Shown here piece by piece: positions 24,328 through 47,829 of a DNA stretch of 64,000 nt. The notes beneath the pieces were generated by a model that was not told the DNA's origin, did no database searches, and worked only from the letters and a program-made list of their open reading frames with translations. The number at the start of each line of letters is the position of its first letter. Position 1 is the first letter of the stretch. The position numbers and the translations under genes were made by a program. Source of the stretch: a virus; UHGV virus genome UHGV-0038496; one strand, written 5' to 3'.

Positions 24328-27300
24328 TTACGCTTCCTTGAAGTTAAATCCCGCACGACAAGCTGTCTGAGAGATTCCTTGTACAGAAACAGAAAGCGAT
24401 ATGTAGGTTTTACCGTTTTCCATATCGTTCCAGTTGAGTTCATAACCGCACCAACCAGATTCACTCAGTGCAACCGTAGGAGAAGAATAACCGAATTTGG
24501 CTAATCTTGACGGGTCGCCTGTGTAAATCGTTAGCTGGCCTGACGGTACACCTTTAAGTTCTGGGATATACATACCACCAAAAACTCTCATCGGGTAACT
24601 TACCAGTGTCTGGTAGCTACACGGTTGAGCAGAGAATGTCTCCATATTGCTTGTACCGTAAGGTTGCGGATAAGCCCCGTCAGTCGGGTTACCTACCCAC
24701 GCCCTGTATTGCGGGTGAATCTCTTTAACCGTAATCGTGGTCGTCTTCGTGAAGACTGTTCCGTTAGTATCAGTACAGGAGTATGTGATAACAGCTGTAC
24801 CTACACCCACGAATTTAACCTGACCTGTATCAGTGGTGATCGTGACGGCATCCGGGTTATTCGTTGACCAGGACTCTGAAGCAGCAACTGCGCCATCAGG
24901 TTGCATAGTCGGTTTACGCATAACACCGCTACCACCTTTGATACCAATTCCGTTGAACGGGTTAGGCAGATCGCTCAAGCCTGTAATAACAGTACCGGAA
25001 CCACATTTCCAGTTATAGAGTTTACTAAAGGTATATGAACCTTCGCCGTAAGAAACTTTAGCTGTAATTGTGATAACCGCTGAACCGTTTTTCAGAGCGT
25101 TGATAGCGAATTTACGGTCAGTGAGTTTGGTAGCAACAAAGACTGTTGGATCACTTGAAGTAACCTCAAAGCTCAGACTTGCTGCACCACCAGGTAAGAA
25201 GTTGTCCGTAACGTAGAAGCCTGACTGCGTACCTGACTGGCTATAAGGATAAGTACCACGTTCCTGATAGGCATTCGTTGGAGAATAGAAGCCTTTCAGC
25301 AAGAACTCATAGGTCACGCTTGAACCAGCGGCCCATGTGTGGTTATTGTTCATTAAAGCCCAGCTGTCAGAGTTACTGAATCCATAAATGGAGACACTAC
25401 CTGATTTCGCAGTTACCCTCGGAGATATTTCCAAAGCACCTTTGGTGTAAGGGCCTGCCATATTATCTCTTAAAGTACTGGTTTCATCAGAAGCCTCAAC
25501 CATGGCGGTAAGTTTTGTACCAGCGGATTCTTTACCTGTTTCATCCGTCCAGCGAATTTCAACTGGAACACACCATGCACCAAGTTCAGCGTTCCCGTTA
25601 GGTATTGTACCATCAGTTGGAGTATGGTAAGTGTATGCAAGATCTTTTCTTACCACGAACTCAGCGAGGTTGCTGTAAGCAGAGTTTGCAGCAATTATTG
25701 CACCGTCCAGAGCTTTTTGCGGGTAAATCAGTATATATTCATCCGCAATCCAACTGGTGTTGGGCATACCCCACCATTTCTTATCGCTGTCTGGAGACAG
25801 TTCGCATCCTGTTCTAACATCCATATACTGAATCCGTTTCGTATATTCGATATTAGAATAAGTTTGTGCAACTCTAGGACCCAAAGCCCCCGAAGTTTTG
25901 TCATAAACCATCATAGATAGTGTGACAGGATCCGGGCGTGATATACCGAAGCATTCTACCAGTTTTTCTTTCGGTAATGCACAACAGTTGTCATTAGACG
26001 CATTGGTTGTGGTGTAAACCAATTTGTTATTACTGTCCCATACCTGCAACTGAATGTTGCCAGGTGTCCAGCTTGTGTACTTGGACATGTCGTCGAAGTA
26101 CAGGAACAAATCCCCATCTGCGTTCGTATTTGCATACGTGTTAGCTGAGGTTTTATTCCAACATGGTAAGGTGAACCAACGAGGAATCTGTTTCTGAATA
26201 AGATTACCGCCTATTGCCTGACAAATTTCTCTAGAGAGAACTTCACGGGCAAGAGGTTTGTAACCCCATTCGATCATTGACCCATTGTAACCTTCCACTT
26301 TGTAGGCATCTGAACCTTCCTGGAACAGGATACGAGTCACAGCTGAGTTATAAGAGTTTACAGGTTTAACTGCAAACTGAGAGTAAACCCTCATCCTCAT
26401 ATTCTGCCATTCTCTACCACCGATCTCCCATTGGTTGTCATAGCAACGCATCAGAGAGGTCCAGCAGATCGGAGCCATACGCAAGCCATCGCCGAATCCT
26501 TTTGTCTGGTCATTGAATATTTTCCAGAGGAAAATGTTTACTGACCACATGGCTCTGTGGAAGTTGAACCAGTTGACAGAACGAGCAGCGTTTTGAAGAG
26601 AAGTACCATCAAGATTAGGCCACACAGCATTAACCAGCATATCTTCTGTACCTGCATCCAGAACTACCCCTCTGATTCTCGGAACACGATTTGCACGGTC
26701 TGCTTCGCACCAATTCTTGATTAGCTGGAGTTGTCTACCATAAACCTCGGACTGATCGGTTTTCTCCAACATCACCTGTTTAACATGAACAATAGGATCA
26801 CCATAGTTACCGTTAATAGCCTCTGGTAGCATAGTCTGACCAAAGTCAAAACGGATACCACTCAAAGTGTTTCCACTGTCGGTTGCCCAATCAGCTACGG
26901 AGCTGAAGTCAAACTCAAACAGCCACCAGCCTGCACCTAACAGAATACGTCTGCATTTTGAGGTGTCTGTGCTGGTGATTTTCCGAACTTCCCTATACCC
27001 CTCGCTATTAATATTATAATAGCAATCAATGATGTAAGGTGATGTACCTGAAGCATTACCTGTAGGCACATTTTTACCGATCTGATCACAACTAACAACC
27101 AGTTTTACTTGCTGGAATCCTGAGGACATTGGTACTGACATAGCGGTAGCAGCCAGATCACCACGCGGATCGTGAACTTTCTCAATACAGATGAAACCAT
27201 CCAGAACACTTGAACCAGATGGTGTTACATTCTGCGGAATAAAGTTGCAGGTCTGGTTCATTTGAGTCCATGAACCTATCTCTTTATCCATCAGGTTGCA

Positions 27301-30159: not shown

Positions 30160-30166
30160 ATAGTAA

Positions 30167-30188
30167 AGCCTCTCCCGCAGGAGAGGCT
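30167..30188 (-). other. GC-rich stem-loop between two tail genes
   Basis: 9-bp stem AGCCTCTCC/GGAGAGGCT with 4-nt loop, followed by TTACTATAT and the RBS of the 1943-aa gene; no strong U-tract. Confidence 0.35.
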
Positions 30189-30194
30189 AATTAA

Positions 30195-31949
30195 TTAACG
30201 TTGTGCAATAATAACGTCCACAATATCACCGAAACCTGGGTAGGTAAGTTGACAAAGTGTTACGCTACTGGCTTTGTTGTTAACTACAGGAGTTGCAGAC
30301 AGGATTGCATACTTATCACTGAATGTGACCTGATGCCCTGTAGCATCCTGACGGAAATAAATTACCACTGAGAACGGGTTAGGTTTATCTTCTTCCGAAG
30401 CTGCTGTAACACCAGGCCACGTTGCTACGTTCAGGTTGCCAGTAACTTCGACAACATACATGCTGGCATTGCCTGATGGGGTCCATGTTCCGGTAGCTCC
30501 AGCGATATCCTCAGATTCGAATTCTAGTTTGGTTGTGCGGATCTTCTCAATTGTGGTGCTACCACCAACGCTAAGGTTACCGTTGATACTAACGTTACCT
30601 GAGGCGTTCATGATCCCGCAGTTGAGAGTTTTACCCGTATAATCCGGCATCCAACCTGTTAATGTACCAGAGATTTGGAGGTTATGGATGTAGGTTGTTC
30701 CTGAACCTGCTGCGTTCAGGCTTACATCCCCATTAACTTGCAAATTGCGATTCACATTGCAATCGGTGAAGTTACCAGTATTGATGGTGGCAGTCGTACC
30801 ATTCAAGGTTGTAATTGCAGCTTTATTTGCAACAATACCGTTACCTTCAAAAGTAGCCTGCTGGTTAGATTTGAATGTGTCAGCAGACAAATCTTTAACC
30901 TTCGCATTACCCTGAATAACCACGGATCCACCAACCTGCAAGTCACCGTTGACACGGGCATCATTGGTTGTTTCCAGGTAGTTCGGGTAAATATCCAAAC
31001 CATCAACAGAGTGAACAATACCTTCAACTTTACCAAGTACTTTCAGGTCTTTGACCTGGGTTACACCGTCAACCGTCAGGGTGGGTTCCTGAACATCTTT
31101 TTGAGAATTACCACGAATATAAACGTAGTCAAAGTAGTTGTTACCACGACCATCAAAGTGAACAGTGTTGTTATCACTTACCGGAGCACCATTGTGGATC
31201 ACATCAGAGGTCAACAGGTGAGTCTCGATGTTGTAAGGATCCAGCATTGTAGAGGTCCAGTTAGTGTGGTTCTTGTCTGTCCAGTTAAAATTAATAGCGG
31301 AATCTCTACCTGTCAAGGTCAGCTCTTTGAAACGCCCAGCAAAGTCAGAAGCATTCAAGGGGCCACGTAAGGTCAAAGTACCGTTAATGACGGTATTGGT
31401 TAATTCTGATAAGCCACGAACAACCAGAGAACCAATTGTGACCTCCATACCAGCCATGGCTTCAAAAATGCTGTCTACATAGTCAACAACAAATGTGGTG
31501 TTGGCAATGGACAGAGATTTATCATTCATCGGCGGTGTCGGAACACGCGGATCACCCTGGAAGAGTGGGCTACTCAGTTTAGCATAAAATTCAGCAAGCA
31601 CGTTGGCATCGGTGTACAATCTCCACGCTGTGGATTTGGACGGATCGGATGGCAAACGTACTGGCGTAGATTTAGATGCTCCAGGAGCATACCACCATGT
31701 GATTTTTCCATCTGCTTTGTATTCGTAAATCTGGTTAAATACTGTGGTGGAAGAACCATATACCCACGGGATTGGTGGAGTTTTAAAATACAGGTTATCA
31801 AGTAATGCTTTGCGGATGGTAGGGATGGTTGTACCATCCTCTACCACAACTTCATCCACAGCAGTACCATTGACAACCAGATGGAGGCGCTCAGAGTCAA
31901 TTATGACCTGATCCACGGCCTCTTCAAAGTTTGTCATGTCTTGAGCCAC
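30195..31949 (-). CDS. tail fibre / tailspike-like protein (584 aa)
   Basis: Repetitive N/T/G/S-rich beta-type sequence; position within the fibre cluster. Confidence 0.45.
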   Translation of the reverse strand: MAQDMTNFEEAVDQVIIDSERLHLVVNGTAVDEVVVEDGTTIPTIRKALLDNLYFKTPPIPWVYGSSTTVFNQIYEYKADGKITWWYAPGASKSTPVRLPSDPSKSTAWRLYTDANVLAEFYAKLSSPLFQGDPRVPTPPMNDKSLSIANTTFVVDYVDSIFEAMAGMEVTIGSLVVRGLSELTNTVINGTLTLRGPLNASDFAGRFKELTLTGRDSAINFNWTDKNHTNWTSTMLDPYNIETHLLTSDVIHNGAPVSDNNTVHFDGRGNNYFDYVYIRGNSQKDVQEPTLTVDGVTQVKDLKVLGKVEGIVHSVDGLDIYPNYLETTNDARVNGDLQVGGSVVIQGNAKVKDLSADTFKSNQQATFEGNGIVANKAAITTLNGTTATINTGNFTDCNVNRNLQVNGDVSLNAAGSGTTYIHNLQISGTLTGWMPDYTGKTLNCGIMNASGNVSINGNLSVGGSTTIEKIRTTKLEFESEDIAGATGTWTPSGNASMYVVEVTGNLNVATWPGVTAASEEDKPNPFSVVIYFRQDATGHQVTFSDKYAILSATPVVNNKASSVTLCQLTYPGFGDIVDVIIAQR

Positions 31950-31958
31950 GTTATCTCC

Positions 31959-32273
31959 TTAAGCCTTCGGTTCTTCGTCTTTTTGATGATCAGGATGTTG
32001 GCATCCCCAACGAAGTGCAATAAACTTACTGATTAATTGTGGGCAAGCAACTGAAGGAGCATAGATCCATGCATACCATTCCGGCAGGGTATCGGTGTAC
32101 CCCATGTGCAGGAAGACGATAGTCATGGCAAGCATACCAATGTTGGACCACAACTTAGCCTGAGATACCTTATTGGGATCGTCCGGTGCTGCGACCAGCA
32201 TCCACAAAAAGGATTTGATTTTCTTGAACATCACCCCTTCTTTACAATGTCTGTACTGTGATCCATTGACCAT
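31959..32273 (-). CDS. hypothetical membrane protein
   Basis: 104-aa ORF with hydrophobic segments (FLWMLVAAP..., MLAMTIVFLHM); true start may be the internal MFKKIK. Confidence 0.4.
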   Translation of the reverse strand: MVNGSQYRHCKEGVMFKKIKSFLWMLVAAPDDPNKVSQAKLWSNIGMLAMTIVFLHMGYTDTLPEWYAWIYAPSVACPQLISKFIALRWGCQHPDHQKDEEPKA

Positions 32274-33306
32274 TTACCAGTTTCTGGAGTGGAGCGGCCC
32301 AATAGCCAGCACCACGCAATTGTTTCTTGTTACCATTCTGCCAACCACGCATTACGTAGCCAGCTCTTACACGGTTATCACCTGTACCGTCTATCAGCAT
32401 ACCTCCACAACGAACATCGGAGATAGCTGGTTGCGGTAGCGCTAATGTTAAGTTGCCGTTACCATCTGCTGTGGCACCGTTTACTGACCTGCAAACATGT
32501 CTTCCACCTACGACGTGATAATTACCACGGGTTGTGTGACTATCGCAGTTAAAACTGTTGGTATGAAGGTTACCACAAGAGGTCTGGCTTGATACAGAAG
32601 CTGTACTCCAGATACTAACAGTGTTACCGTTCATAGAACCAGCACGTAAGTTATCAGCAGCGATAATGTCACCTACTACGGACAATCTACCACGGTTTGG
32701 AGAGATAGCACACAGTTTCATCAGTGTGAACAGGCTACCACCTACAGGGTGGAATCTGTAGCGGAACCCTTCTGTACCTGTGTAGTAGGATGCTTCAAGG
32801 TCTGCTGTACCGTAGTTGTCGGACATACGAAAATCGAAATAGGTTTTATCCCCACCTTTATACCCAGGGGTATCTGCAATCGTGGAACAGTAAATCGCAC
32901 AAGTATCTGTATTGGCAGATGTGAAATTAATCCTTGTAACCCCTAAAGTCATGTTACCTTTCAAGGTATCCCCTGTCAGGTGAACATAACGGTCATCCAT
33001 CTCCGCTATTGTCAGGCAACCAAGATTTTCCCTTGCAGCAGCTTTGTCCGGTATCTCTGCCAGGTTGTTAGCAACTCGTAAAAAACGGTCATCCCACCCT
33101 GGGATGGCCTCTTCGTTCATGTATTTCAGCCAGTTACCAATCATGTTGAACTCAAAATTCATATGCTCAACAGCAATTTTCTGACTGAAGTCCCAACCCG
33201 CTAACCTCCGTTCATCATTGGGCTGGACCTTATTCAATTCTCGTGTGGTGTCAAGCAGTGCATCCTGATATGCCCACACCTCAAGTGGATAAGTCGGTTT
33301 TGGCAT
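32242..33306 (-). CDS. tail fibre protein, paralogue A (354 aa)
   Basis: N-terminus MPKPTYPLEVWA... and C-terminus ...RGAGYWAAPLQKLVNGQWITVQTL nearly identical to the 34345..35385 product; central region divergent. Confidence 0.65.
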   Translation of the reverse strand: MPKPTYPLEVWAYQDALLDTTRELNKVQPNDERRLAGWDFSQKIAVEHMNFEFNMIGNWLKYMNEEAIPGWDDRFLRVANNLAEIPDKAAARENLGCLTIAEMDDRYVHLTGDTLKGNMTLGVTRINFTSANTDTCAIYCSTIADTPGYKGGDKTYFDFRMSDNYGTADLEASYYTGTEGFRYRFHPVGGSLFTLMKLCAISPNRGRLSVVGDIIAADNLRAGSMNGNTVSIWSTASVSSQTSCGNLHTNSFNCDSHTTRGNYHVVGGRHVCRSVNGATADGNGNLTLALPQPAISDVRCGGMLIDGTGDNRVRAGYVMRGWQNGNKKQLRGAGYWAAPLQKLVNGQWITVQTL

Positions 33307-33335
33307 GTTTTCTCCTGACTAAAATTCTTGACATT

Positions 33336-33364: not shown

Positions 33365-33386
33365 CCAGAGGCTTCCTTGCCGTTGG

Positions 33387-33701
33387 TTATTTCTCCTTGT
33401 TACTCAGGAGAATCTGGATAATTTGTTGAATGTCGCTCCGCAATCCATTAACGTCACTTTTGACCTCTTTCCTTAACTCGTCAAGGTTATCTTGAATATC
33501 TTTAAGACGCTGGTTCAACACCGCGTCAAGTCTATCTTTTGTAACCATATTGCTTTTCACCAAAATAAGGTCCTTCTCTAAATCATCCAATCTTTTAGAG
33601 ACGGCTTTCCACTTTACGTGCCACTGACCAAAAATCCAGACACCTATCGGGACAATAACGCTCATGATTATCTCAAAAAGCGTACCAAAGTCCAGTTCCA
33701 C
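33387..33701 (-). CDS. hypothetical membrane-anchored coiled-coil protein
   Basis: N-terminal hydrophobic helix IIMSVIVPIGVWIFG then heptad-like charged sequence. Confidence 0.4.
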   Translation of the reverse strand: MELDFGTLFEIIMSVIVPIGVWIFGQWHVKWKAVSKRLDDLEKDLILVKSNMVTKDRLDAVLNQRLKDIQDNLDELRKEVKSDVNGLRSDIQQIIQILLSNKEK

Positions 33702-33710
33702 ATTACCTCC

Positions 33711-34328
33711 TTAGAAGGCTGGGCGATCAGGGATATGTATGTTAGGGGCTTTGTTTATATCAATCTCCAGTAGGTGAATCCTGTAAAGTTTCAGTTCCTT
33801 AACAAACTGCTCCTGTTCAGGAGATAGTATATAATCCAAGTCCAGCATGTCGCTGAAAGCTCCAAGCCTTGCTGTAGCCCATTGCAATTCTTCTTCAATG
33901 ATCTGCTGTGCAGCATCGATGTAAGGTTTGTTATCAACAACAAATTTCTCACCATCCCAGCGGTAGGCATTGATCATGTTCTCAATGTCTTCCGGGAACT
34001 CCTCTCGTTTACCGTGCAGGACTTGAAGACCATCACTGGGGAAAATACCTGCGGGATCTGTGGTTACAATTTTCAGTAAACCATCGGATTCTATAACTGC
34101 GAACAGGTATTCTACTCCAGATTCCTGGGCAATTTGCTGTAATTCTCGTGTCTGGGCGTACCAGTCACCGTGCTCATTGCGAAGGAAGTAAGCAGAATAA
34201 CGAGCGTAATCTTCAATCTCCTGCTCTGTTAATTCCAAGGTTTGTGGCTGATCTTCATCGAGAGCCAACACCATCGGGCGAGGCTCTTGCGGATCATACA
34301 GCTCAAAACCTGTAGCCATTTTGATCAT
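33711..34328 (-). CDS. putative tail fibre assembly / chaperone protein
   Basis: 205-aa acidic protein immediately downstream of a fibre gene; assignment by position and composition only. Confidence 0.3.
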   Translation of the reverse strand: MIKMATGFELYDPQEPRPMVLALDEDQPQTLELTEQEIEDYARYSAYFLRNEHGDWYAQTRELQQIAQESGVEYLFAVIESDGLLKIVTTDPAGIFPSDGLQVLHGKREEFPEDIENMINAYRWDGEKFVVDNKPYIDAAQQIIEEELQWATARLGAFSDMLDLDYILSPEQEQFVKELKLYRIHLLEIDINKAPNIHIPDRPAF

Positions 34329-34344
34329 AATATGTAACCCTCAA

Positions 34345-35385: not shown

Positions 35386-35398
35386 TTATTTCTCCTGA

Positions 35399-37477: not shown

Positions 37478-38166
37478 TAAGCCTCCGTAACGATAGTTGC
37501 GTCAACAACAATATTTTCACACCAAACAGTGGTGGAACCCCAATCAGGCCGTTCATCCGGTACATAAACCAGAGTAGCAATACCGTCTACCCCGAACTGC
37601 TCATCGTCCCAGACTGATCCAAATCCAGCAGCTGTATCATCTCCAGCAAAACCAAATGCCCTGCCCTGTGATTCTGTCAATCTCAGGTGAGTTGGCAGCG
37701 GCATCATATCAAGGATCTGATCAACTGCCTGACTAATGTCGAAGCAAGTTTTCCTGACGTTAATGTCGAATCGGAAGTTGTCCCCAGCCCATGTATCGAA
37801 ATTGTTTCTGCCCAGCAGCTGTTGTAGCGTAGAGATCACATCCTCACGCGTACCACCACGGGACAAAGATGCCTGTTGAATAATAAGTGTAGCACGATAG
37901 TCTGCATCTTGCAAGCCATTTCTTTTTATGCCAAACTGCTTACCAATCTCATCAAAATATTTACCGCTGGCATTGTTAAGTAGACGGCCTTCTGCAAGAG
38001 CAACTAACATCTCATCAACAGTCTGCAACCTTTTAAGGTAGATAGACAGGAACGTTGTCAGGTCTTCTTTCTCTCTCAGAAAATCGCCGGGGAGGTAATC
38101 CAGACCTCCCTCAACGAAATCTGGCAGAGTGTGAATGTGGTTAACATCTATTTTCTTCTCTGCCAT
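37477..38166 (-). CDS. putative baseplate protein (P2 gpI-like position)
   Basis: 229-aa ORF directly downstream of the baseplate J-like gene; assignment by gene order. Confidence 0.3.
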   Translation of the reverse strand: MAEKKIDVNHIHTLPDFVEGGLDYLPGDFLREKEDLTTFLSIYLKRLQTVDEMLVALAEGRLLNNASGKYFDEIGKQFGIKRNGLQDADYRATLIIQQASLSRGGTREDVISTLQQLLGRNNFDTWAGDNFRFDINVRKTCFDISQAVDQILDMMPLPTHLRLTESQGRAFGFAGDDTAAGFGSVWDDEQFGVDGIATLVYVPDERPDWGSTTVWCENIVVDATIVTEA

Positions 38167-38175
38167 AACTCCACC

Positions 38176-39666
38176 TTAAATGATTTGCTGGAATGTGATG
38201 TTGTTTTCATCAAGGTCAAACACCTCTGACATTGCAGCTGTAATGTCAGTAGCTGTATAAGCCTCATCTGAAGCACCAATCGGTTTCACATGGATGCTCA
38301 ATTTGTTAAAACGACCGATACTAACAGCAGCAGAAGCAGCACCTACAAGCTGAATGTTGTAAAGCGTATCTGCAATATCGAGGCCGTTAACAACTGCCAT
38401 CATGGCATCTATGATTGATTCTTTTTCGGTAGCAGAAAGTGCCACACCGGAATACGTTACCTTAACGTCCAGACGGTAAGTATTTGCTTTGGAGTAGTAA
38501 ATTCTTTCCACCTGACCATCTGAGGTGTTGATATCGTAGAACAGGTTACCGTAAGTCCTGTTCGTACAAGCAACCGTATCATACAGAGCCTGACAAATAT
38601 CAGCAGTGGAGCCACCAAACACAACCACCTGGAACTTATAAGGCGGGATGCCTAAGTTGTTAGTCTTATCTGTGTTGTTGGTGAATACCCTGACTTTACT
38701 TACCCCAGCCACATTGTGAATCGCACTCAGGATCGCAGGACGAGTAGCTTTAGCAGTTACCGTGTTGGTGCTTGTAGCTCTCAGGCGATACTCAGCGTCT
38801 GTCTCTACGTTTGTACCTTCGTTGAACATCTCTCTGTTGGTGAGGGAGATGAAACCACTAGGTGTCGGAGAGATCGTGGTAACAGTGTTTGCTTCACGGG
38901 ACATTTCACCTGCTTCAGAAGCGATGACTTCCAGCACGACTGTACGTTCACCAACAATCGGAGAAATACGGAAGTCAACTTTACTGTTCAGGCCTACACG
39001 TTCAAGAGTGGCATCATAGCCAATCCACAACGTACCTGTGGACATATCCACTTGAATCAAATCTTCGTTCAAAAGCGTGGAGTTGTCAACAATAAATTGC
39101 TTGATCTCACCATAGAAACTAACAAGGTCTGTGGAATCCAGTGCCTTATCAGTAAGAATCATGGTTTTGGTAAAAATAGTGCCATCAACCTGATTGGTCA
39201 TCTGGAATATGTATTTACCAATTCTGAGATCCGGTGCTGTTATCTTGTGAGCAATTATGTTGCCTGCTACCTGTGCATTACTTGCGAGTTTGAAGTTACC
39301 ACTGTCAATGCTATAAGTTTCTGTGTCGTAAATCATATTATAAGGGACAGTACTGTTGATTGTCAACTGGCACTGACCAGAAGCCTTAGTACGCCCTCTA
39401 CGATAAACACCTTGTCTCCCCAGTAATTCATCAAGGTAGATGCCTTCTGCCCCGTACAGCGTCTGGGAGGCGTATACAGCAGCCATCATGAGGATTAACT
39501 GGTATTCACGTTCGTTAAAGATTGTGGTGAGCTTGTCAGCAACCGAGTTGCTCTGGACGTTGAAATTATCCCCGAACGCCCTGATCAAGCTCTGCTTAGT
39601 TTCAACGATCAAATCGTTAAGTGTGGGCAATATAAACCCAGCATCTGTTAAACCATATTTAGCCAT
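38176..39666 (-). CDS. putative baseplate J-like protein
   Basis: Track ORF trimmed to ATG at 39664-39666 (MAKYGLTDAG...) with RBS GAGAGGAAAT, downstream of a terminator-promoter pair; size and position match baseplate wedge proteins. Confidence 0.4.
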   Translation of the reverse strand: MAKYGLTDAGFILPTLNDLIVETKQSLIRAFGDNFNVQSNSVADKLTTIFNEREYQLILMMAAVYASQTLYGAEGIYLDELLGRQGVYRRGRTKASGQCQLTINSTVPYNMIYDTETYSIDSGNFKLASNAQVAGNIIAHKITAPDLRIGKYIFQMTNQVDGTIFTKTMILTDKALDSTDLVSFYGEIKQFIVDNSTLLNEDLIQVDMSTGTLWIGYDATLERVGLNSKVDFRISPIVGERTVVLEVIASEAGEMSREANTVTTISPTPSGFISLTNREMFNEGTNVETDAEYRLRATSTNTVTAKATRPAILSAIHNVAGVSKVRVFTNNTDKTNNLGIPPYKFQVVVFGGSTADICQALYDTVACTNRTYGNLFYDINTSDGQVERIYYSKANTYRLDVKVTYSGVALSATEKESIIDAMMAVVNGLDIADTLYNIQLVGAASAAVSIGRFNKLSIHVKPIGASDEAYTATDITAAMSEVFDLDENNITFQQII

Positions 39667-39700
39667 ATTTCCTCTCAGTTGGGAGAAACCCTTGTGACCT

Positions 39701-39729
39701 ATTTTACCAAAAAACAGCAAAATAGTCAA
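39701..39729 (-). promoter_or_regulatory. sigma70-like promoter (TTGACT, 17-nt spacer, TGG-TAAAAT)
   Basis: Read on the minus strand: TTGACT (rc of 39724-39729), 17 nt, TGG then TAAAAT (rc of 39701-39706). Confidence 0.5.
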
Positions 39730-39745
39730 TTACAGATACAAAAAA

Positions 39746-39761
39746 CCCCGCCGAAGCGGGG
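39746..39761 (-). terminator. rho-independent terminator
   Basis: CCCCGC-CGAA-GCGGGG hairpin followed on the minus strand by TTTTTTGTATCTG; downstream of the 39787..40233 gene. Confidence 0.7.
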
Positions 39762-39786
39762 TAATGTATCAGGAGAAACTTGAATT

Positions 39787-40233
39787 TTATTCTTCCTTGT
39801 TACGCAGTTTTTCAACCACCTGTGTAAGCTCTGCAAGGCTTTTCTCAAGTTCTTGCAAACTTGACACTTGTTGTTCCAGCTCAGCAATCCTGTTCTGTGC
39901 TTCAATCAGTTTAGCTTCCTGCTCTGCAATCAGTAATTGTTCTGTGCTTGGCTCTACAAGCTCTGGTTCTTCCATTTCCAGAGATAGAGGCATAATTGCA
40001 GCTTCCATTGCTTCATCAAAATAATCCACCAAAGCCCATTCTTCCAGCTCAAAATCGAAAATTGCCATCTGGCCTTCAGGAATTACATCCGGCGGGGCAA
40101 TTGTTGTGCACAGTGCAGGCAATCCGGTGTGAGGTGGAATTTGGATATCCACTTCGTTCACGAAGGCAAATGTGTCATTTGTCACATTGTAAACGTGAAC
40201 AACTTGCATTTCATCTGACATTTCAAAAGCCAT
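39787..40233 (-). CDS. putative tail fibre assembly protein
   Basis: Start moved to ATG at 40231-40233 (MAFEMSDEMQ...) with RBS GAGGG; N-terminal domain then C-terminal coiled coil; sits directly after the 1635-aa fibre gene. Confidence 0.4.
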   Translation of the reverse strand: MAFEMSDEMQVVHVYNVTNDTFAFVNEVDIQIPPHTGLPALCTTIAPPDVIPEGQMAIFDFELEEWALVDYFDEAMEAAIMPLSLEMEEPELVEPSTEQLLIAEQEAKLIEAQNRIAELEQQVSSLQELEKSLAELTQVVEKLRNKEE

Positions 40234-40280
40234 AGTTTTAACCCTCATGATTGAAGCGTTTGTTAATCTCTGCAACAGCA

Positions 40281-40311
40281 GAGAGGATTAACGTTTTCAT
40301 GCAATCCTCTC
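40281..40311 (-). other. intergenic stem-loop (9-bp stem, 13-nt loop)
   Basis: GAGAGGATT...AATCCTCTC inverted repeat immediately after the fibre stop codon; no U-tract on the coding strand. Confidence 0.35.
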
Positions 40312-40318
40312 TTTTCTG

Positions 40319-43300
40319 TTACGCTAAACGCACAATATAGTTAAATGCAACGTTCTTAACGGTGTTTTCCGTATTACCCGCAGCATTAACCGTGATTGTG
40401 TGGCTGTGTGCACCAATACCAACTGTATGACTGTGTGAGCCGATACCTACGGAGTGGGTGTGAGTACCATTCCCGTCGATAGATCCACTCAGTGAGTGTG
40501 TGTGGGCACCATCCCAAGAAGTTTTAGCCGCCCTCGACACAGCTGTTTTACCAGTAAACGAGCTACTGGTAAGTTTCCACAAAGTCTGTGAACCCTCAGT
40601 AGTGTAACCATCCTGGAAAGTACTAGCACCTGCACCATCCTGGACCTGACAACCGGAACGAGCGTGTTGGTGAGAACCACCAGAACCAACGCTACCCTTG
40701 AGACTGTGACCGTGCCAGCCACTTTCGCCAGTAGTTTTACTACCATAGTTGAAACCAGAAGTGGTTTTAGTACCAAGATCCACACTGTTGGAACTTGCAC
40801 CGTGGGTGTGTGATTTGATACCGTCAGCTTCGGTTGACAGAACATCACGACCAGTGGCTGGTTTACCTTTAATGGTCTGACCACGCATGTCAGGGAGAAC
40901 CCCGCTCGGATACGCAGCAGCCAGTTTAGGATAAGCAGCTTTGTCGAATCCCTGACCAGCCATGATAGCATAACCAGAAGGTGCTGTGTCAGTAGGCCAC
41001 GGTAGCGGAACACCAACCGGAACTCCTGTTTCAGCAAGGTTAACACCATCCATAGTCAGGAACTGGTTTGCTGTAACAATATTACCAGTAATGTTACCGT
41101 TTACTGAGAAATATTTATGCAAGTTATCTTCAGCTGTACCACAGTGGAATACCCAATCGGAAACACCCTGCTCGATATCGGTAGTATCTAAGATTTGGAA
41201 TTCCAAAACGTTCTTACGAGTACTTCCGTTACCCCAATAGTACAATCTGCCGTTATTAGCAGGTAAATTGGAGTTGTTGCTAGGATTGTCAGAACCACCA
41301 ACATGAATGAGCAACTCTTTATCTGTTTCGTCAACATTACGATTCGAGCGTAACTGGATAGCTTTACCAGAATCGTGCCGCCAAACTTCCCACATGTAAG
41401 TTGACCCAGTTCTATCCATGTTACCAACACGGGTATATCTGTCACCAAAACGTGTGATGTACTCCTGTACGCAGCCTTTCGGATTGTTTGCATTGTTCTG
41501 GTAAACAATCAGAGTACCAGCGTACGGTGCTGGGTAATGCCTTTCAGTTGTACAGTCAGCATCTTTTGGTTGGTGGTAAATACCCTCACGAGTACCATCG
41601 TAAGTGTTCAGGTCTGTAGCGTCAAGGCCTACACCTTTATGAGTTAAGATCCTGTTCCATGGTCTGTGATAACCAGCTTCAATGGATCTTGTATACATCT
41701 GGTCAAGGCGACCAGCCATCTGGAAAGCATAGTTTCCAGAGAATGATACAGATATACCACCAACAACCATTGAACCTTCAGGCCCGTTGGTGCTGCCAGC
41801 CATCACTTTGCACGGATTGTTAGCCCCGAACTGGTTGTTCCAGTCACCACTTGTATGGCATACAAAACCACTAGGTGAGTGGAGAGTACCGTCAGCATTA
41901 AAGTTCCAGAATTTATGAGCAGAACCTGTCATATCCCGGACAATAACCTGACCACCAGAACCTGCTGCACGGAATTCAGCCTGACCTAAGTTACCGCATT
42001 TAGAGGTGAACGTACAGTTGATTAAATCTTCTGTACCCTCGGATCTTGTCAGGAAGCCTGCGTTAGATTCAAGAGCTTTACGGGTTGTCTGGCTACCTGG
42101 GCAGATGTATTTCAGACCATTGAACCAGAGTTCTGTTTCACCCATCTCTGTTTTGTTCTGCAAGAACCATTTTTCTCTGGAACCACGATACATCCATTGG
42201 TTACAGTAGAAACCGCTTACACCACCTGTAAAGTCGAAGAGTGCACGCGTGTTGGTTATGCCGTCACCCAATAATGCCTCTTTAAGGCTGGTGATACCTG
42301 CTTTGTATACAACCCCATCGTTATTTTCCGTAGGAGTACCGGATACAAAGTCGTTAGCATAAGTACGAACATCTGTTACTACAGAACTTGCATAAACATA
42401 GACAGGGAACGCTTTTTCATGGACATAGATGGCAGCATATTGCTGATTGCCACGAGTAGGAACAAGCAACCCCAAAATGGACGCTTCATTCTGGTAAAAG
42501 TTGATAATACCGTAGGCAGAATCACCTCTGTCTGTCCAACCACCAGTGCGATACCAACATCTCAGGGTGGAACAGTTCATAGGTTCACTACCCATCGCAG
42601 ATCTGGTATGAATGAGGAGGTCTGTACCAATTGTACCGTTTACCGAAGGTGTGTTGATAATAACAGGATAATATTTATCCTCTTCCGCACCATCAGGTTT
42701 CTGAATTACGAAAGGTGTCGTGTTTACAGCAGAACCACCTGTACCAGTGCTGCTACCACCGCCTTCACCACCGGAGATACCTATGCGTTCTAACCATGCT
42801 TTAACTTCGGTATCAGATACACAGCCTGTACCACCTTTTTCTACTGGGAGTACACCTGTGATCTTATCATCGGTTAAACCAACAGAATCCATTTTACCTA
42901 AAGCACGACCACCGAGGTTAGTCCATGCAGTGGCTGGATCTTTGGCACCAGTACCACCATTGGCAATAGGAAGTGGGATAGTACCTAGACCTTTAGAAGA
43001 ATAACATCCCCAAGCGTCACCACCAGTATTTACGTACAAATACGCAGTACCTGCTTTATTACAAAGCTGAGTCTCACCACCAGTTGTCTGAGTCAGACGA
43101 TCAACCGAAAGGTTGACACGAGCATCAGCAACGGTTCTCGCACCTGTACCGCCTTGGGAGATACTCAAAGGTTGCCAGTTACCAATTTTAGGGTTAAATG
43201 CCCCCCACTGACCGTCAGCATCAACCTGTAAGTAGCAGCCGTTAGCTTGAACGTCAGTAGAACAAACGATAGTCCTTGTATCGGTGGAACGGATGAAGCG

Positions 43301-45226
43301 GGTTAACTTCAAGCTAGTTTTCAAACCGTCGAGACTGTTTGCACCTGTACCACCTTTAGCCACAGGCAGCACACCAGTGATCTTGCCATCTGTCAACGCA
43401 ATGCTATCAAGTTTACCCAGAGCTTTACCACCCAAGTTAGCCCATGCGGTGTTCGCATCTCTTGCACCAGTACCACCCTGACCGATTGCCAGCGGGATGT
43501 AAGAGCTGTTGGCAATATCATAAGCACCCCAGAGTTTACCCTCTGTAATGATCAGTTTGGCAGTGTTTGTTGGGTTGTTGACGGCAGTTTCAGAACCTGC
43601 CTGTACAAGTCTGTTAACCTGTAAAGTATTACGGGTTGTATTCAGATCACGTACAGTAAAGGTGTTACAAGCAACAGTATACGGAACTTCAAAGTTACCG
43701 TCCTCGTTGAAACCCAGGTATCTGTGAATCTGGTTACCTTCTGGACCTTTTTTCAGGTGCAGGGTTAACCATGTTTTATTATCGTTACGGACTTCTGAGT
43801 AAATACGGAAACCGTGTTCTTCTGTCGTACCGTTAGCTTTGTATTTAGTACCATTCAGAATACCTGAAGGACCAACGTTGTTACTTACAGCTCTCAGATA
43901 CAGATTGCTAAAACTGGGTGAATTACCTGCACCAATCCCTATCCACTCACGGAAGCCGTTCGTGTTCACAGGTCTTGACCAGGTTACCCATTGCTGCCAG
44001 GTTTTTTCACCTGCATTATACCAGCGAGAATAATAGGTATCTTCGGTGTTGAACGGATGATATTCCTGACGGCAACCATCTCCCCCGTTCACGTTGTTCT
44101 GCAATACAATCAGTACACCTGCCTGTTGGCAAGGATAACCGTTAGCAGCAGTAGCAAGAGCTGACACTGGTTGATAGTAAACACCAGCTTCATTACCTTT
44201 CAGGTTATTGATATTGAAATTAGCTTCCAGTGCAGTATGGGATCTGTGGAATACCGCAAAGTTACGACGGAACGAAGCAGCATCACGAACACCTGTACCA
44301 CCCTGTTCTACACCCAGAGGTTGCCAGTTATTAGCAGTAGGGTTGTAATACCCCCAACGACCAGAAGTATCCAGTTGCAGGTACGGGACATTACCAATGT
44401 CTTCACCAGAGAAAATAGCCGTACGAGACGGATTAGTCTGGTCAAAACGGTTGAATTCAGATTTTAATGCATGTCTGTGGCATACCGCTTTGTGAGTTTC
44501 TTTGGAAACACGGATGGTGTAGATCGCACCAGTTTTGCCACCCTGCATAATAGCTTCGTACACGTTGGAAGTGGAGGTTTCCGCAACTTTCGATACGAAA
44601 CCATTTAAAGTGCCTTCACCTCTTGCAACATCAGGGAACTGAACAGTTGCTTTTTCATCCATTACGATGTGGCCTGCATAGCCTTCGAGGTAGTTAGCAT
44701 TTGATACAACAGTTACCCTTTCGAAGCTCAGGCCGTTCAGCACACGTACAGCTTCAAAAGCAGCATCAATAGCTTCATCCATAGTATCCTGAATGGTTCT
44801 ACCATCTTCAGTCAATACCAGGGAAGCACCGATTGTGGAACCTAACTCGTCACGTAAAGACGGGTCAGTGTAAACCGACCATGCACCATCAGTTACGCCA
44901 CCATCTTCGTAGGGACTTGACAATGAAGGTACAGTATGCGGGTATCCACCTGTCCAGCGTAAGTATAAATCTTCTTCCTCGTAGTAGCAGAAGTCCATCG
45001 GACCATTCAGGGTGCCACCGTCATGGAAGTTGACAACGTGGGAGAGAGTCGGATCACCTGCCATCAGATCTTTCACTGAAGTTCTGCGGGTGAGGTCTGG
45101 TTGCTGAACGATCAGATAGTCTTCTTCTTTGTTGACTTCTGTGGTTACAGGCAAAGACTCAATCCTGACAAGTTTCACATCTGCCATTGTTTCTCCTGTT
45201 AGGAGGGCCGAAGCCCTCCAGATCAA
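40319..45226 (-). CDS. giant tail fibre protein (1635 aa) with internal repeats and C-terminal His-X-His array
   Basis: Repeated modules around GGTG (QGGTGARD..., ANGGTGAKD..., GVLPV.KGGTG); C-terminal HTHSLSG...[23 protein letters not shown]...[11 protein letters not shown]. Confidence 0.7.
42826..43500 (-). repeat. tandemly duplicated coding modules within the giant fibre gene
   Basis: Two roughly 60-codon blocks (about 42826-43010 and 43306-43500) encode near-identical peptides (...[25 protein letters not shown]...); also seen as mirrored plus-strand shadow ORFs in the track. Confidence 0.5.
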
Positions 45227-47829
45227 ATATACAAGTTGCGATATTGAGCGTAAAGGCCCAGACCTCTCAGTATTTCACCGGAGTGGAAACCTACAGGATC
45301 TGAGTTAGCCCAACAGCCGTTAAGGATATTAGTGCCATTGACAAAATAATGTCTCTGTAAGTCATTCATGCAGGCTTCAACTACTGGGTCAATCTGTGCC
45401 CATGTGTAACCTGCCAAACCTGCATAACAACAACCAGCTAACCATTCAGCGGTGATCCATTGTCTGTCACCTCTGTCCTGATTGGAATAGCCACCTGTCG
45501 TACTGAAATCTGTGGGTAATCTGCCACCATTCGCTGACTGGAATCTGTTCAGGAAAGCAATCCATTTCTGGCAATACTGTTCCAGACGTTCATCCACAGG
45601 TTTTTTATTTTTCTTCAATTCGTAAAGTGCTCTGCAACCAGCAAGGAATGCTCTGCTTTGCATTTTAGAATTGTCCAGCATCATGAACCCACCAATCAGG
45701 CTACCTTTCTGCCAGTTGTAAGCTGTGTAGACAGGACCTTCTGTGCGAAATACGACTGAATATTGCTGCTGAGCATCATACAGGAATTTAACACAGTTAG
45801 TAAGCTCTGCAAGATCTGTAGGTTCTTCACCCATACAGAATACCGCAGGGTACTGTTCGCCAGCTACCGGATAGGCAGGTCTTTCTTCCAGCAAATAATT
45901 GTCTGGATCAGCAACCTTACCTGTAGGCCATGCCCCTGGTGCATAGTTCAGGCTGTCAAATTTGTAATCTGCGACATAGCAATCACCAAGTTTAGCAGTT
46001 GCTGCCACACGGGATGCGAGATGCATTGAGAATCTTACGATGTAAACATCACCTACAAAGTTAAAGAACTCTGGTAAATTGTTTACACAATATAGATTGA
46101 AAATGCCATCGCCAATCTTAGTAGTTGCCAGCTTAATGGTGATCTGAGTCACCTCTTTCAGGTTGGCAAAGAACGGTTTCACTTCATCAGCAGTGTGATT
46201 AGGCTGCGTAGTTTCAAGCAGAAAATCACCAATTGACAAGTTTTCAGTGACCCAGTTTGCACCTGTGCCATGTAGATCAGTATACCATAACCAGCCATCT
46301 TTATCAAGGAAATTAATCCTGACAATATCTGCTGTGCATTGATAAGTAATGGAACGCAGTGCTCTCGTGCCATTAAAATCAAAAACAACCTGACCGCTTG
46401 AGATATTCAACGAAGCGTAGTTATCGCTGTGGCCTAGCAAGGTACTGGAGTAGCCCATGCTCAGAACAGCACCACCACTGGCTGTTAATCTTTCTTCTTT
46501 TGGCAGAAGATAGGATTCACCGAACTCTGGAGATACCCTTACGAAGTCGCGGATCTCAAAAGTGTTGGTCTGCATACCTGTTCCACCGAACGGAACACCA
46601 ACACGGTACTCTATGTTTTTACCATAACCATCATCAATGGTGAAATATGGCTGGAACAGAACATTATCACCACCGAATTCGATTACTATGGCAGAATCCC
46701 TGTTCACTTTATACGTAAGACCGCGTTGAACAACTTCACAAGGTTTACGTGCCCCCATACCAATGTTGATATAACCTTCGGCATCACGGGTGAGTGTAGG
46801 TCTGTTACCTGTGATTGTCACATTACCATCTGCAAAAGGCGCTCTAATCTCCGTGGTGCGTCTGCAAATCATATCATAGGCATTTGGGTTACAGTACGCT
46901 AATAGCTCGCTGTGGGCCTTCTTATAGGCCTCAAAATACTTGCTTTCGTAAGTGATCGAATAAAGTGCATAGCAAGCATCACACCACATTGCCAGTGCGT
47001 CAACAGGTTCTGGCTGATCAGGTGCTGTCACGTTGCATGGAGAAGTGATCACCGGATCATAGCGTTTGATCTCTTTACCGCCCTGTGCAACAGGTAGACG
47101 TACTGCATAGTTTAATTTGTGTGTGCCGTTAACCGAAGTGCTGGCTAACTGAACAGTACCGTACTCAGAAGCAGCATGTCCTGTATCAGCGATAGTGCCG
47201 TTGGCCCAGTAACGATTACCATCCCAGGCTATGTACCAATCAACAGGGTATTTCGTACCAGATGCATACCAGTTCGGAGCAGCATCTGTACCTGCATACA
47301 CATCAGAATTCATAGAATTACGACCTAAAGCACCATCGTAGGCCATAACTGCAACATCAAGATACTCACCCCAGGTAGGTGAGCCAGAGGGAATTTTAGC
47401 TCTCCCTTTGCTGAAAGAGATGTTCACCCCTTTAAAACCACCATGTTGTGGAATACCGTCATCTGTTAATGGGTAGTGGGAAATACGATTGCATTTTCCT
47501 TCTACTGCAAAGTTACCTGTTAAATGTTTATCATAAGCATCCCAGCAGGCTTTTGCTCTGGCTAACCAGAACTCATCCTCTGTTGCTCTGTATACCTCTA
47601 CGTAACCCAGGATCAACACAGCCTGAGCCTCTGGAGTCGTCCAGTCATTGTTGATAGTGGAACCCTTCCAACCGCTGGCGATCAGATGTTCAGGATCAAC
47701 AAGAAAGTTCTGACTATTCGGGCTAACTGTAAGGCCAGTGTTTTTATCGAGGCACGTCCTGTGCCCCTCTATCATCTGGTATACGTTATCAATGCCGTGT
47801 TGAATACGCATATTACCTAGCTCCTGCAA
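45223..47829 (-). CDS. large tail / baseplate-associated protein (868 aa)
   Basis: Position in the structural operon, overlapping the giant fibre gene start; no family assigned. Confidence 0.4.

What the first reader, a model, noticed from the sequence alone, without database searches (positions are those of the whole stretch)
24328..47829. At least six large fibre or spike-like proteins in one cluster imply a multi-receptor or branched adsorption apparatus
The cluster holds ORFs of 1943, 584, 354, 346, 692, 1635 and 868 aa plus two putative assembly factors, interleaved with baseplate genes. That many receptor-binding candidates resembles phages with branched fibre systems, and two of the larger ones may carry enzymatic domains.
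Basis: inference. Interest (0 to 1): 0.5.

Follow-up and report, generated by a model that had tools for sequence, protein, structure and literature searches.

The report
rV5-type multi-fibre phage adsorption locus
This is the tail-fibre and baseplate gene cluster of an uncultured relative of E. coli phage rV5; its many fibres, two with sugar-cutting-type folds, are real, but they are the already described "Swiss army knife" hallmark of this phage group, so the finding is correct and ordinary.

The parts
47813..48481 (-). 222-aa small fibre or adaptor protein, just outside the stated range: N-terminal Tail_spike_N anchor plus a small C-terminal domain. Orthologue of rV5 gp43 / bas55_0024.
   Evidence: PF18668 E 7e-12; phrog_7760 4e-96; N-terminus matches the CBA120 TSP1/3/4 anchor region; 36% identical to residues 35-119 of the 1635-aa fibre; rV5 gp43 detected in virions.
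45223..47829 (-). 868-aa ORF (probable start 47811, 862 aa): tail protein with an (alpha/alpha)6-toroid glycoside-hydrolase-type domain interrupted by beta-sandwich, CBM-like inserts. Orthologue of rV5 gp42 / bas55_0025.
40319..45226 (-). 1635-aa ORF (probable start 45187, 1622 aa): long lateral tail fibre. Tail_spike_N anchor, rV5-type shaft, Collar domain, T4 gp37-type needle tip. This is the most variable gene of the locus.
   Evidence: PF18668 and PF07484; about 50% identical to Vequintavirus fibres up to about residue 1388; C-terminus matches 2xgf (T4 gp37 tip) at E 1.7e-66; 55-60% identical to Tequatrovirus gp37; seven HxH motifs at residues 1473-1607; only about 68% identical, with indels, to the sister phage while its neighbours are 89-97%.
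39787..40275 (-). 162-aa ORF (148 aa as called): tail-fibre assembly chaperone for the gp37-type tip. It replaces the unrelated bas55_0027 of Vequintavirus.
   Evidence: phrog_105 6e-16; residues 12-82 are 50-53% identical to Tfa/G proteins of P2-like and Gifsy phages; PF28596 Caudo_TAP_N weak hit on the public gene call; no match to bas55_0027.
38176..39729 (-). Baseplate wedge 2 (517-aa ORF, 496 aa as called). Docking platform for the long fibre.
   Evidence: 9cuy_T phiTE wedge 2 at E 2e-154; phi92 gp145 at 1e-55; PF04865 Baseplate_J.
37477..38166 (-). Baseplate wedge 1 (229 aa). Docking platform for the short fibres.
   Evidence: 9mjn_dh phiTE wedge 1 at E 2e-63; phi92 gp146 at 1e-25.
35399..37477 (-). 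692-aa tail protein: Calx-beta-like N-terminal sandwich, NCTSP_N domain, and a glycoside-hydrolase-like TIM barrel homologous to N4 sheath proteins gp64/gp65. Candidate binder or processor of the NGR glycan.
   Evidence: PF23845 1e-76 and PF23844 5e-15; AF2 pLDDT 93.7, pTM 0.90; Foldseek N4 gp64 TMt 0.61 and gp65, then GH50/31/13/66/2 and Cwp19; invariant D309, D310, E391, E457, E570, D573 in 38 sequences, the last four also conserved in N4 gp64.
34345..35385 (-). 346-aa short tail fibre, paralogue 1 (Mu gpS / phi92 gp147 type).
   Evidence: phrog_4465 1e-149; N-terminal residues 1-91 match the phiTE STF N-terminus at E 6.5e-21; matches phi92 gp147; 74% identical to bas55_0035.
33711..34328 (-). 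205-aa tail-fibre assembly chaperone (Mu gpU / lambda Tfa type) for the short fibres.
   Evidence: PF02413; phrog_136 6e-20; 33% identical to phi92 gp148.
33387..33701 (-). 104-aa conserved protein of unknown role between the two short-fibre genes.
   Evidence: phrog_5345 2e-34; 51% identical to bas55_0037.
32242..33306 (-). 354-aa short tail fibre, paralogue 2.
   Evidence: phrog_4465 2.5e-114; 51% identical to the 346-aa paralogue; matches phi92 gp147 over its full length.
31959..32273 (-). 104-aa ORF (90 aa as called): small membrane protein, the best conserved gene of the locus.
   Evidence: phrog_1322 6e-30; 82% identical to bas55_0039; 36% identical to phi92 gp144 'membrane protein'.
30195..31949 (-). 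584-aa lateral fibre of the phiTE LTF type. Its N-terminal helical bundle docks on wedge 2 and the sheath initiator, the same docking module as the phi92 gp150 colanidase spike.
   Evidence: 9cuy_g at E 4.7e-82; PF26208/PF26209 Phage_phiTE_241_N/C on the public gene call; N-terminal residues 6-112 are 44% identical to the phi92 gp150 N-terminus and the C-terminus is 40% identical to the gp151 C-terminus; docking described in PMC11972413.
24328..30159 (-). 1943-aa virion protein with a weak RCC1-like N-terminal region and C-terminal Big_2-type Ig domains. Orthologue of rV5 gp27. Position in the virion unknown.
   Evidence: phrog_15684 E 0 and phrog_215 5e-11; 47% identical to rV5-type 'structural protein with Ig domain'; rV5 gp27 found in virions with 3 peptides, 3.1% coverage; 84% identical to the sister phage.
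24283..24301 (-). Intrinsic terminator closing the operon, 27 nt after the stop codon of the 1943-aa gene.
   Evidence: Seven G-C pairs, 5-nt loop, followed by TTTTTTGTTT.

Best explanation
The region is the late-operon adsorption module of a contractile-tailed phage of the rV5 (Vequintavirinae) type. It encodes a multivalent baseplate periphery. Shown by homology to solved structures: wedge 1 (229 aa) and wedge 2 (517 aa) form the platform; the 584-aa fibre docks through an N-terminal helical bundle on wedge 2 and the sheath initiator; the two Mu-type short-fibre paralogues (346 and 354 aa), folded with the 205-aa chaperone, dock on wedge 1. Inferred: the 1635-aa fibre and the 222-aa protein attach through a shared TSP1/gp66-type anchor domain, probably to another fibre protein and not to the wedge, which would make a branched assembly. 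The 1635-aa fibre is the main specificity determinant. It ends in a T4 gp37-type iron-stabilised needle that is folded with the adjacent Tfa-type chaperone. The 692-aa N4 gp64/gp65-like TIM-barrel protein and the 868-aa (alpha/alpha)6-toroid protein probably bind or cleave conserved surface glycans (the NGR glycan in relatives) so that the virion can pass the polysaccharide layers. Binding of the short fibres to the LPS core is then expected to trigger wedge rearrangement and sheath contraction.
Against: There are no data for this uncultured phage itself. In close relatives only three fibre densities were resolved by cryo-EM although nine fibre genes are annotated, and the authors say it is unclear which genes make which fibre. 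The rV5 orthologues of the 584- and 692-aa proteins (gp28, gp34) are not among the 19 proteins detected by mass spectrometry, and gp27 rests on three weak peptides. phi92 gp140 and gp151, which share modules with this locus, resemble a head spike protein. The 868-aa model is only moderately confident (pLDDT 69.7). Catalysis is untested for both enzyme-like folds, and N4 gp64 is described as a structural sheath subunit.
Confidence: 0.8

Rival explanations
1. Only about three true baseplate fibres exist. One or more of the large proteins, above all the 1943-aa Ig-domain protein and possibly the 868-aa protein, are not receptor-binding fibres. They could be other virion decorations (head, neck or sheath-associated) or accessory glycan-binding proteins that raise the local phage concentration on mucus or biofilm.
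For: Cryo-EM found three fibres despite nine annotated genes. phi92 gp140 and gp151 resemble a head spike. The 1943-aa protein has Big_2-type Ig domains of the kind found on capsid and tail decoration proteins (phrog_215 and phrog_341 hits). It has no solved homologue and only three weak peptides in rV5 virions.
Against: The gene is the last cistron of the fibre operon in every relative. It is one of the variable genes between sister phages (84% against 89-97%), as expected for a host-contacting protein. Long flexible fibres are routinely lost in averaged cryo-EM maps.
Confidence: 0.3
2. The enzyme-like folds are catalytically dead scaffolds. The 692-aa and 868-aa proteins would act only as lectins or structural adaptors, as N4 gp64 is described within the non-contractile sheath.
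For: N4 gp64/gp65 are described as sheath subunits and as the NfrA-binding protein, not as enzymes. No activity has been published for the rV5-type orthologues. The Foldseek matches for the 868-aa model are weak.
Confidence: 0.3
3. The cluster is an assembly chimera that joins fibre genes of several co-occurring phages, which would inflate the apparent number of fibres.
For: The source is a metagenome assembly. Short DNA patches are shared with unrelated phages.
Against: The same order is found on an independent contig from another sample and in every isolate of the subfamily. Composition is uniform across the region.
Confidence: 0.02

Closest known systems
Vequintavirus (rV5, BASEL phages such as JeffSchatz): the 'nanosized Swiss army knife' lateral tail fibre locus
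   Same: Same gene order from the 222-aa protein to the giant Ig-domain protein. Same wedge genes in the middle, two short-fibre paralogues with a chaperone, the N4-like TIM-barrel protein, the phiTE-241-type fibre and the GH-like 862-aa protein. Amino-acid identity is 45-82%.
   Different: No nucleotide-level similarity. The four-gene module bas55_0028-0031, with the 1199-aa FN3 fibre, is missing from the window and from a sister contig. The distal third of fibre 2 and its chaperone are replaced by a T4 gp37-type tip and a Tfa-type chaperone. An HNH gene sits between the hub and spike genes, and an intron splits the tape measure gene.
phi92 (Justusliebigvirus) multivalent adsorption apparatus
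   Same: Wedge 1 and 2, short fibre (gp147), chaperone (gp148) and small membrane protein (gp144) are homologous. The docking bundle of the 584-aa protein matches that of gp150, and the PF18668 anchor matches the gp151 N-terminus. Three co-expressed fibre types, with fibre II branching from fibre I, have been seen by cryo-EM.
   Different: No endosialidase (gp143) or colanidase body here. The 1943-, 868- and 692-aa proteins have no counterpart within phi92 gp144-153. phi92 has one short fibre gene, not two.
phiTE (Certrevirus) baseplate, PDB 9CUY/9MJN
   Same: Strongest solved homologues: wedge 2 (E 2e-154), wedge 1 (2e-63), the LTF for the 584-aa protein (5e-82) and the STF N-terminus (6.5e-21).
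   Different: phiTE is flagellotropic and has a simpler network of STF, LTF and one unmodelled fibre. Its STF body differs from the 346/354-aa proteins beyond the first 91 residues.
N4 non-contractile sheath gp64/gp65 and the NGR glycan receptor system
   Same: The 692-aa protein carries the NCTSP_N and TIM-barrel modules. Its best structural match is N4 gp64, with the acidic motif QIGEPWWW conserved. N4 and Vequintavirinae both depend on wecB/nfrB.
   Different: Here the module sits on a contractile-tail baseplate as a single 692-aa protein, not as a gp64-gp65 heterodimer wrapped round a podovirus tail tube.
T4 gp37 long tail fibre tip (PDB 2XGF) with gp38
   Same: The last 260 residues are homologous (E 1.7e-66; 55-60% identical to Tequatrovirus gp37) and carry seven HxH motifs.
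   Different: The tip is grafted onto an rV5-type shaft with a TSP1/gp66-type anchor instead of the gp34-gp35-gp36 chain. The adjacent chaperone has a lambda Tfa / P2 G-type N-terminal domain, not gp38.
CBA120 TSP1-4 and G7C gp63.1/gp66 branched tailspike complexes
   Same: The Pfam Tail_spike_N domain (PF18668), which mediates attachment in those complexes, is present in two proteins of this locus.
   Different: No beta-helix tailspike bodies and no TSP2/TSP4-type hub were detected. Branching here is an inference.

Membership tests
Vequintavirinae-type multi-fibre adsorption locus | Contractile-tailed phage with an rV5-like structural gene set and a genome of about 131-140 kb | tested here: met
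   Sheath 71% identical to Vequintavirus. Hub, tube initiator and tape measure are syntenic. Source contig is 140,706 bp.
Vequintavirinae-type multi-fibre adsorption locus | Large orthologous fibre locus flanking the two wedge genes | tested here: met
   11 of the 16 bas55_0026-0041 proteins tested have a positional orthologue by tblastn; the five without a match are bas55_0027-0031. bas55_0024 and 0025 match by size, position and annotation.
Vequintavirinae-type multi-fibre adsorption locus | Two paralogous Mu-type short tail fibres with a Tfa chaperone | tested here: met
   The 346- and 354-aa proteins are 51% identical. The chaperone carries PF02413.
Vequintavirinae-type multi-fibre adsorption locus | N4-like glycan-targeting fibre component (called 'deacetylase' in the literature) | tested here: met
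   PF23845/PF23844. Structural match to N4 gp64/gp65. The fold found is GH-like TIM barrel; no deacetylase appeared among the top 50 matches.
Vequintavirinae-type multi-fibre adsorption locus | Three large, allelically variable lateral fibre genes | tested here: not met
   Only two of the three are present (1635 and 1943 aa). The FN3 fibre (bas55_0031) and its three neighbours have no match in the 64-kb window or at this place in the sister contig. The remaining 76 kb of the source contig was not examined.
Vequintavirinae (ICTV subfamily) | Placement by genome-wide phylogeny or shared-gene content | not tested
   Only 64 kb was available. There is no megablast match above 300 nt to any isolate, so at most it is a new genus.
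T4 gp37-type needle receptor-binding tip | Sequence homology to the solved tip domain | tested here: met
   2xgf_A at E 1.7e-66 over residues 1377-1635.
T4 gp37-type needle receptor-binding tip | Series of HxH motifs that coordinate iron along the trimer axis | tested here: met
   Seven HxH motifs at residues 1473, 1505, 1519, 1575, 1589, 1598 and 1607. The count of seven irons in T4 is from my own knowledge of the 2XGF paper.
T4 gp37-type needle receptor-binding tip | Dedicated gp38-type chaperone or adhesin | tested here: not met
   The downstream gene has a lambda Tfa / P2 G-type N-terminal domain and is not gp38. It is known from the literature (my own knowledge) that Tfa can substitute for gp38.
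CBA120/G7C-type branched tailspike complex | TSP1/gp66-type N-terminal attachment domain | tested here: met
   PF18668 in the 222-aa protein (E 7e-12) and in the 1635-aa protein (E 9e-11).
CBA120/G7C-type branched tailspike complex | Physical attachment of one spike to another (branching) | not testable with these tools
   This needs multimer modelling or cryo-EM. The only support is the analogy to phi92, where fibre II sits on fibre I.
Glycoside hydrolase, (alpha/alpha)6 toroid (GH105/GH88/GH76-like), for the 868-aa protein | Fold | tested here: met
Glycoside hydrolase, (alpha/alpha)6 toroid (GH105/GH88/GH76-like), for the 868-aa protein | Catalytic residues and activity | not tested
   Invariant Asp/Glu residues exist in the 12-sequence alignment but were not mapped onto an active site.
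Glycoside hydrolase-like TIM barrel, for the 692-aa protein | Fold plus conserved carboxylates just after or within predicted beta-strands of the barrel region | tested here: met
   pLDDT 93.7. GH50/31/13/66/2 and Cwp19 matches. In the DSSP string of the model, D309/D310 follow strand 303-307, E391 begins strand 391-393, E457 follows strand 452-456 and E570 ends strand 567-570. Which strands belong to the barrel, and activity, were not established.

The most novel reading that the evidence does not exclude
This uncultured lineage runs a rewired version of the rV5 apparatus. It has dropped one of the three variable lateral fibres. It has fitted another with a T-even gp37-type needle and a lambda-type chaperone, so that a 'glycan-specialist' phage type may here use an outer-membrane protein or LPS receptor in the T4 manner. 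In addition, the widely cited 'deacetylase' fibre component may really be a glycoside-hydrolase-like TIM barrel, and the 862-aa protein a GH105/GH88-like hydrolase. That would change what chemistry these phages are thought to perform on the NGR glycan.
Probability: 0.3. Interest if true: 0.35.

Novelty: new member of a known kind. Interest (0 to 1): 0.2.

Why it matters
Phages of the rV5 and phi92 type are valued for unusually broad host range, which is attributed to this multi-fibre locus, and which gene makes which fibre is still unresolved. A diverged natural variant with one fibre module missing and another tip swapped is a useful comparative data point for assigning genes to fibres and for host-range engineering. 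The fold-level assignments may also help to identify the enzymatic step on the NGR glycan: a GH-like TIM barrel with an invariant acidic site shared with N4 gp64, and an (alpha/alpha)6 hydrolase-type toroid. None of this changes the general picture, which is already published.

Tried and rejected
N4-like podovirus. I considered this after the first Pfam hits (NCTSP, Tail_spike_N) and rejected it, because the window encodes a contractile sheath, hub and wedges and no giant virion RNA polymerase.

Nucleotide search for a known isolate. It gave only 140-300-nt patches.

NCBIfam. It gave nothing for any of the eight proteins.

Pfam on segments of the 1943- and 1635-aa proteins. It added nothing beyond weak RCC1-like and Ig-like hits. 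No internal repeats were detectable by BLAST.

rV5 supplementary search by 'gpNN' labels. It found nothing because the table uses bare numbers. The table was then read directly.

Assembly chimera. Rejected on the sister contig.

Whether the FN3 fibre module lies elsewhere on the 140-kb contig. This could not be checked, because only proteins encoded in the window can be looked up.

Mapping catalytic residues in three dimensions. Not possible, because model coordinates are not exposed to the scripting tool.
Full report
OBSERVATION. The two smaller 'assembly factor' ORFs (33711-34328 and 39787-40275) and the two baseplate genes between them (37477-38166 and 38176-39729) are also there. Spacing is tight or overlapping, base composition is uniform, and a strong intrinsic terminator lies 27 nt after the last stop codon (24301-24283). 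The region therefore reads as one late operon. Every ORF hits phage tail families with very strong scores, so these are genes and not chance frames. The quoted lengths are maximal ORFs. Public gene calls and alignments indicate 862, 1622, 496, 148 and 90 aa for five of them.

WHAT PHAGE THIS IS. The neighbouring genes encode a tail sheath, a tape measure, a tube initiator, a hub, a central spike and wedge proteins. This is a contractile-tailed phage. My first guess of an N4-like podovirus, prompted by the Pfam hits, was wrong. Protein searches against isolate genomes put it nearest to Vequintavirus (rV5-like E. coli phages). The sheath is 71% identical and the 1943-aa protein 47% identical over its full length. 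At nucleotide level nothing longer than about 300 nt matches any of 50,697 phage records. An exact-protein look-up identifies the source as a 140,706-bp metagenome contig, ENA ERZ27287477 k141_617802. A sister phage on an independent contig from another sample (ERZ27303252) has the same gene order.

SYNTENY WITH THE KNOWN LOCUS. The cluster was compared with the carefully annotated BASEL phage JeffSchatz. It is colinear: 222 aa = bas55_0024, 868 = 0025, 1635 = 0026, 517 = 0032, 229 = 0033, 692 = 0034, 346 = 0035, 205 = 0036, 104 = 0037, 354 = 0038, 104 = 0039, 584 = 0040 and 1943 = 0041. For the eleven pairs from 0026 to 0041 confirmed by tblastn, identity is 45-82%; 0024 and 0025 are assigned by size, position and annotation. 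The BASEL authors annotated these genes as lateral or short tail fibres. They describe the locus as the hallmark of Vequintavirinae and relatives: three co-expressed sets of lateral fibres, two short-fibre paralogues, many glycan-binding or glycan-hydrolysing domains, a 'nanosized Swiss army knife' (PMC8594841). RBPseg counts nine annotated fibre proteins in two such phages but found density for only three near the baseplate (PMC12143355).

PLACING THE PARTS. Sequence searches against solved structures give direct anchors.
- The 517-aa protein is wedge 2 (phiTE 9cuy_T, E 2e-154; phi92 gp145).
- The 229-aa protein is wedge 1 (9mjn_dh, 2e-63; phi92 gp146). The BASEL label 'putative tail terminator' for its orthologue is therefore mistaken.
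- The 584-aa protein is the homologue of the phiTE long tail fibre (9cuy_g, 5e-82). [quoted passage not shown]
- The first 91 residues of the 346-aa protein match the phiTE short-fibre N-terminus, which docks on wedge 1.
- Both short-fibre paralogues (51% identical to each other) match phi92 gp147. That is 'fibre III', the Mu-like fibre proposed to mediate irreversible binding and to trigger contraction.
- The comparison with phi92 also shows module shuffling. The docking bundle of the 584-aa protein is 44% identical to that of gp150, the proven colanic-acid hydrolase spike, although the bodies differ. Its C-terminus matches the gp151 C-terminus. The N-terminal anchor shared by the 222- and 1635-aa proteins matches the gp151 N-terminus.

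THE VARIABLE LONG FIBRE. The 1635-aa protein begins with the Pfam Tail_spike_N domain (PF18668), the attachment domain of CBA120 TSP1 and G7C gp66. The 222-aa protein encoded just upstream of the stated range has the same domain, 36% identical. The shaft is about 50% identical to Vequintavirus fibres up to about residue 1388. The last 260 residues instead match the T4 gp37 needle tip (2xgf, E 1.7e-66). They are 55-60% identical to Tequatrovirus gp37 and contain seven HxH motifs, the iron-binding signature of that fold. The gene that follows is not the Vequintavirus bas55_0027. It is a protein whose N-terminal 70 residues are about 50% identical to lambda Tfa / P2 G-type assembly proteins. Tip and chaperone were therefore exchanged together. 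Between the two sister phages nearly all proteins of the locus are 89-97% identical. This fibre differs: 87% in the anchor region, about 68% with indels beyond it, and 1635 against 1284 aa. The 1943-aa protein is 84% identical. That is the pattern expected of host-contacting determinants, and it mirrors the allelic variation reported for Vequintavirus.

ENZYME-LIKE DOMAINS.
The 692-aa protein carries Pfam NCTSP_N and TIM-barrel_NCTSP (E 1e-76). With a 38-sequence alignment, AlphaFold2 gave a high-confidence model (pLDDT 93.7, pTM 0.90). Foldseek places it next to N4 gp64 (TMt 0.61, rmsd 3.6 A) and gp65. After those come glycoside-hydrolase TIM barrels of families GH50, GH31, GH13, GH66 and GH2, and Cwp19. 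No deacetylase appeared in the top 50, although the literature calls this component a 'glycan deacetylase'. Acidic residues D309/D310, E391, E457 (motif QIGEPWWW), E570 and D573 are invariant across sequences sharing 27-94% identity. In the DSSP string of the model they lie just after or within predicted strands of the barrel region. The last four are conserved in N4 gp64. The family is large (1568 hits) and is fused to various anchor domains in other phages and prophages.

VIRION EVIDENCE IN RELATIVES. rV5 virion mass spectrometry detected gp30 and gp33 (short fibres), gp32, gp41 (fibre 2), gp42 (the 862-aa orthologue), gp43 (the 222-aa orthologue), gp37 (the FN3 fibre) and gp27 (1878 aa, three peptides, 3.1% coverage). 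gp28 and gp34 are not among the 19 proteins listed (PMC3606486). Genetics in relatives shows dependence on wecB/nfrB, that is, on the N4 glycan receptor, and on the LPS outer core.

WHAT IS DIFFERENT HERE.
(i) The four-gene module bas55_0028-0031, including the 1199-aa FN3 fibre, has no counterpart in the window or at this place in the sister contig. This lineage therefore carries seven of the nine annotated fibre genes. The remaining 76 kb of the source contig could not be examined.
(ii) Fibre 2 has the gp37-type tip and the Tfa-type chaperone.
(iii) Homing-endonuclease traffic is heavy around the tail genes (see below).

MECHANISM, AND HOW SURE. I put 0.8 on the reading that this is a multivalent, rV5-type adsorption apparatus with several co-expressed fibre types. 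Shown by homology: wedge identity, the docking mode of the 584-aa and short fibres, the gp37-type tip and the two enzyme-like folds. Inferred: branching through the PF18668 anchors, glycan processing by the 692- and 862-aa proteins, a role for the 1943-aa protein as a fibre, and the order of events (glycan passage, reversible binding by the long fibre, short-fibre binding to the LPS core, wedge rearrangement). The main rival, at 0.3 for at least one protein, is that some of the large proteins are not baseplate fibres at all.

SIDE FINDING. The tape measure gene is split into an N-part (54907-56142) and a C-part (52980-54092), with an HNH ORF between them. Rfam gives a full-length but sub-threshold group I intron match across the gap (RF00028, 24.8 bits, E 0.002). 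Homology to the intact JeffSchatz tape measure fixes the junction. Exon 1 ends at 54918 on a U, the 829-nt intron ends at 54089 on a G, and the spliced product is 777 aa with no stops. It aligns in one piece with the 778-aa orthologue.

VERDICT. Observation confirmed. Interpretation supported. The system is a new, uncultured member of a well-described kind. Interest is low (0.2).

Noticed in passing
window 52980-56142 (-): exon 1 56142..54918, intron 54917..54089, exon 2 54088..52980: The tape measure gene is interrupted by an 829-nt probable group I intron carrying an HNH endonuclease ORF (54846..54256). Rfam RF00028 matches full length but below threshold (24.8 bits, E 0.002). The 5' exon ends in U and the intron ends in G. 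The spliced product is 777 aa and is colinear with the intact 778-aa JeffSchatz tape measure.
   Followed up: yes
window 49903-50568 (-); also 57025-58626 (-) and 18550-20004 (+): Free-standing HNH endonuclease genes. One is wedged between the baseplate hub and central spike genes, which abut directly in JeffSchatz. A 533-aa one lies next to the tail tube gene, and a 484-aa one lies on the opposite strand.
   Followed up: partly
L001 12062-12748 (JeffSchatz bas55_0033); window 37477-38166: The BASEL annotation 'putative tail terminator protein' for this gene is wrong. The orthologue matches the solved wedge 1 proteins of phiTE (E 2e-63) and phi92 gp146.
   Followed up: yes
window about 38065-38204 and 40331-40469: Short DNA patches of about 140 nt, 81-84% identical, are shared with 9g-like siphophages (Salmonella phage 40; Escherichia phages HdK1 and HdSG1). 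One lies at the wedge 1 / wedge 2 junction. The other lies at the very 3' end of the long-fibre gene, where HdSG1 annotates a 'tail collar domain protein'. This suggests tip exchange across morphotypes.
   Followed up: no
window 23461-24327: The convergent gap after the fibre operon holds a perfect 12/12 sigma-70 consensus promoter on the + strand (23647-23674). It also holds two small hydrophobic + strand ORFs (23666-23893, 75 aa; 24052-24249, 65 aa with two apparent membrane helices), ending at the shared G+C-rich hairpin at 24283-24301.
   Followed up: no
proteins P0029-P0092: Dozens of Acinetobacter prophage proteins of 623 aa with the NCTSP_N + TIM-barrel architecture are named 'phage capsid protein' by NCBI, although they are tail (non-contractile sheath-type) modules. 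Other family members are fused to a DUF2460 N-terminal domain.
   Followed up: no
phage records MG065635, MG065653, MG065652, MG065655 and others: Records named 'Campylobacter phage C12/C14/C11/C2/D1' score the same as E. coli Vequintavirus genomes for every protein tested. They look like rV5-type coliphages that are mislabelled or were carried over as contaminants.
   Followed up: no
window 31959-32273 (-): The small membrane protein between the second short-fibre gene and the 584-aa fibre gene is the best conserved gene of the whole locus: 82% identical to JeffSchatz and also homologous to phi92 gp144. Its role is unknown.
   Followed up: no
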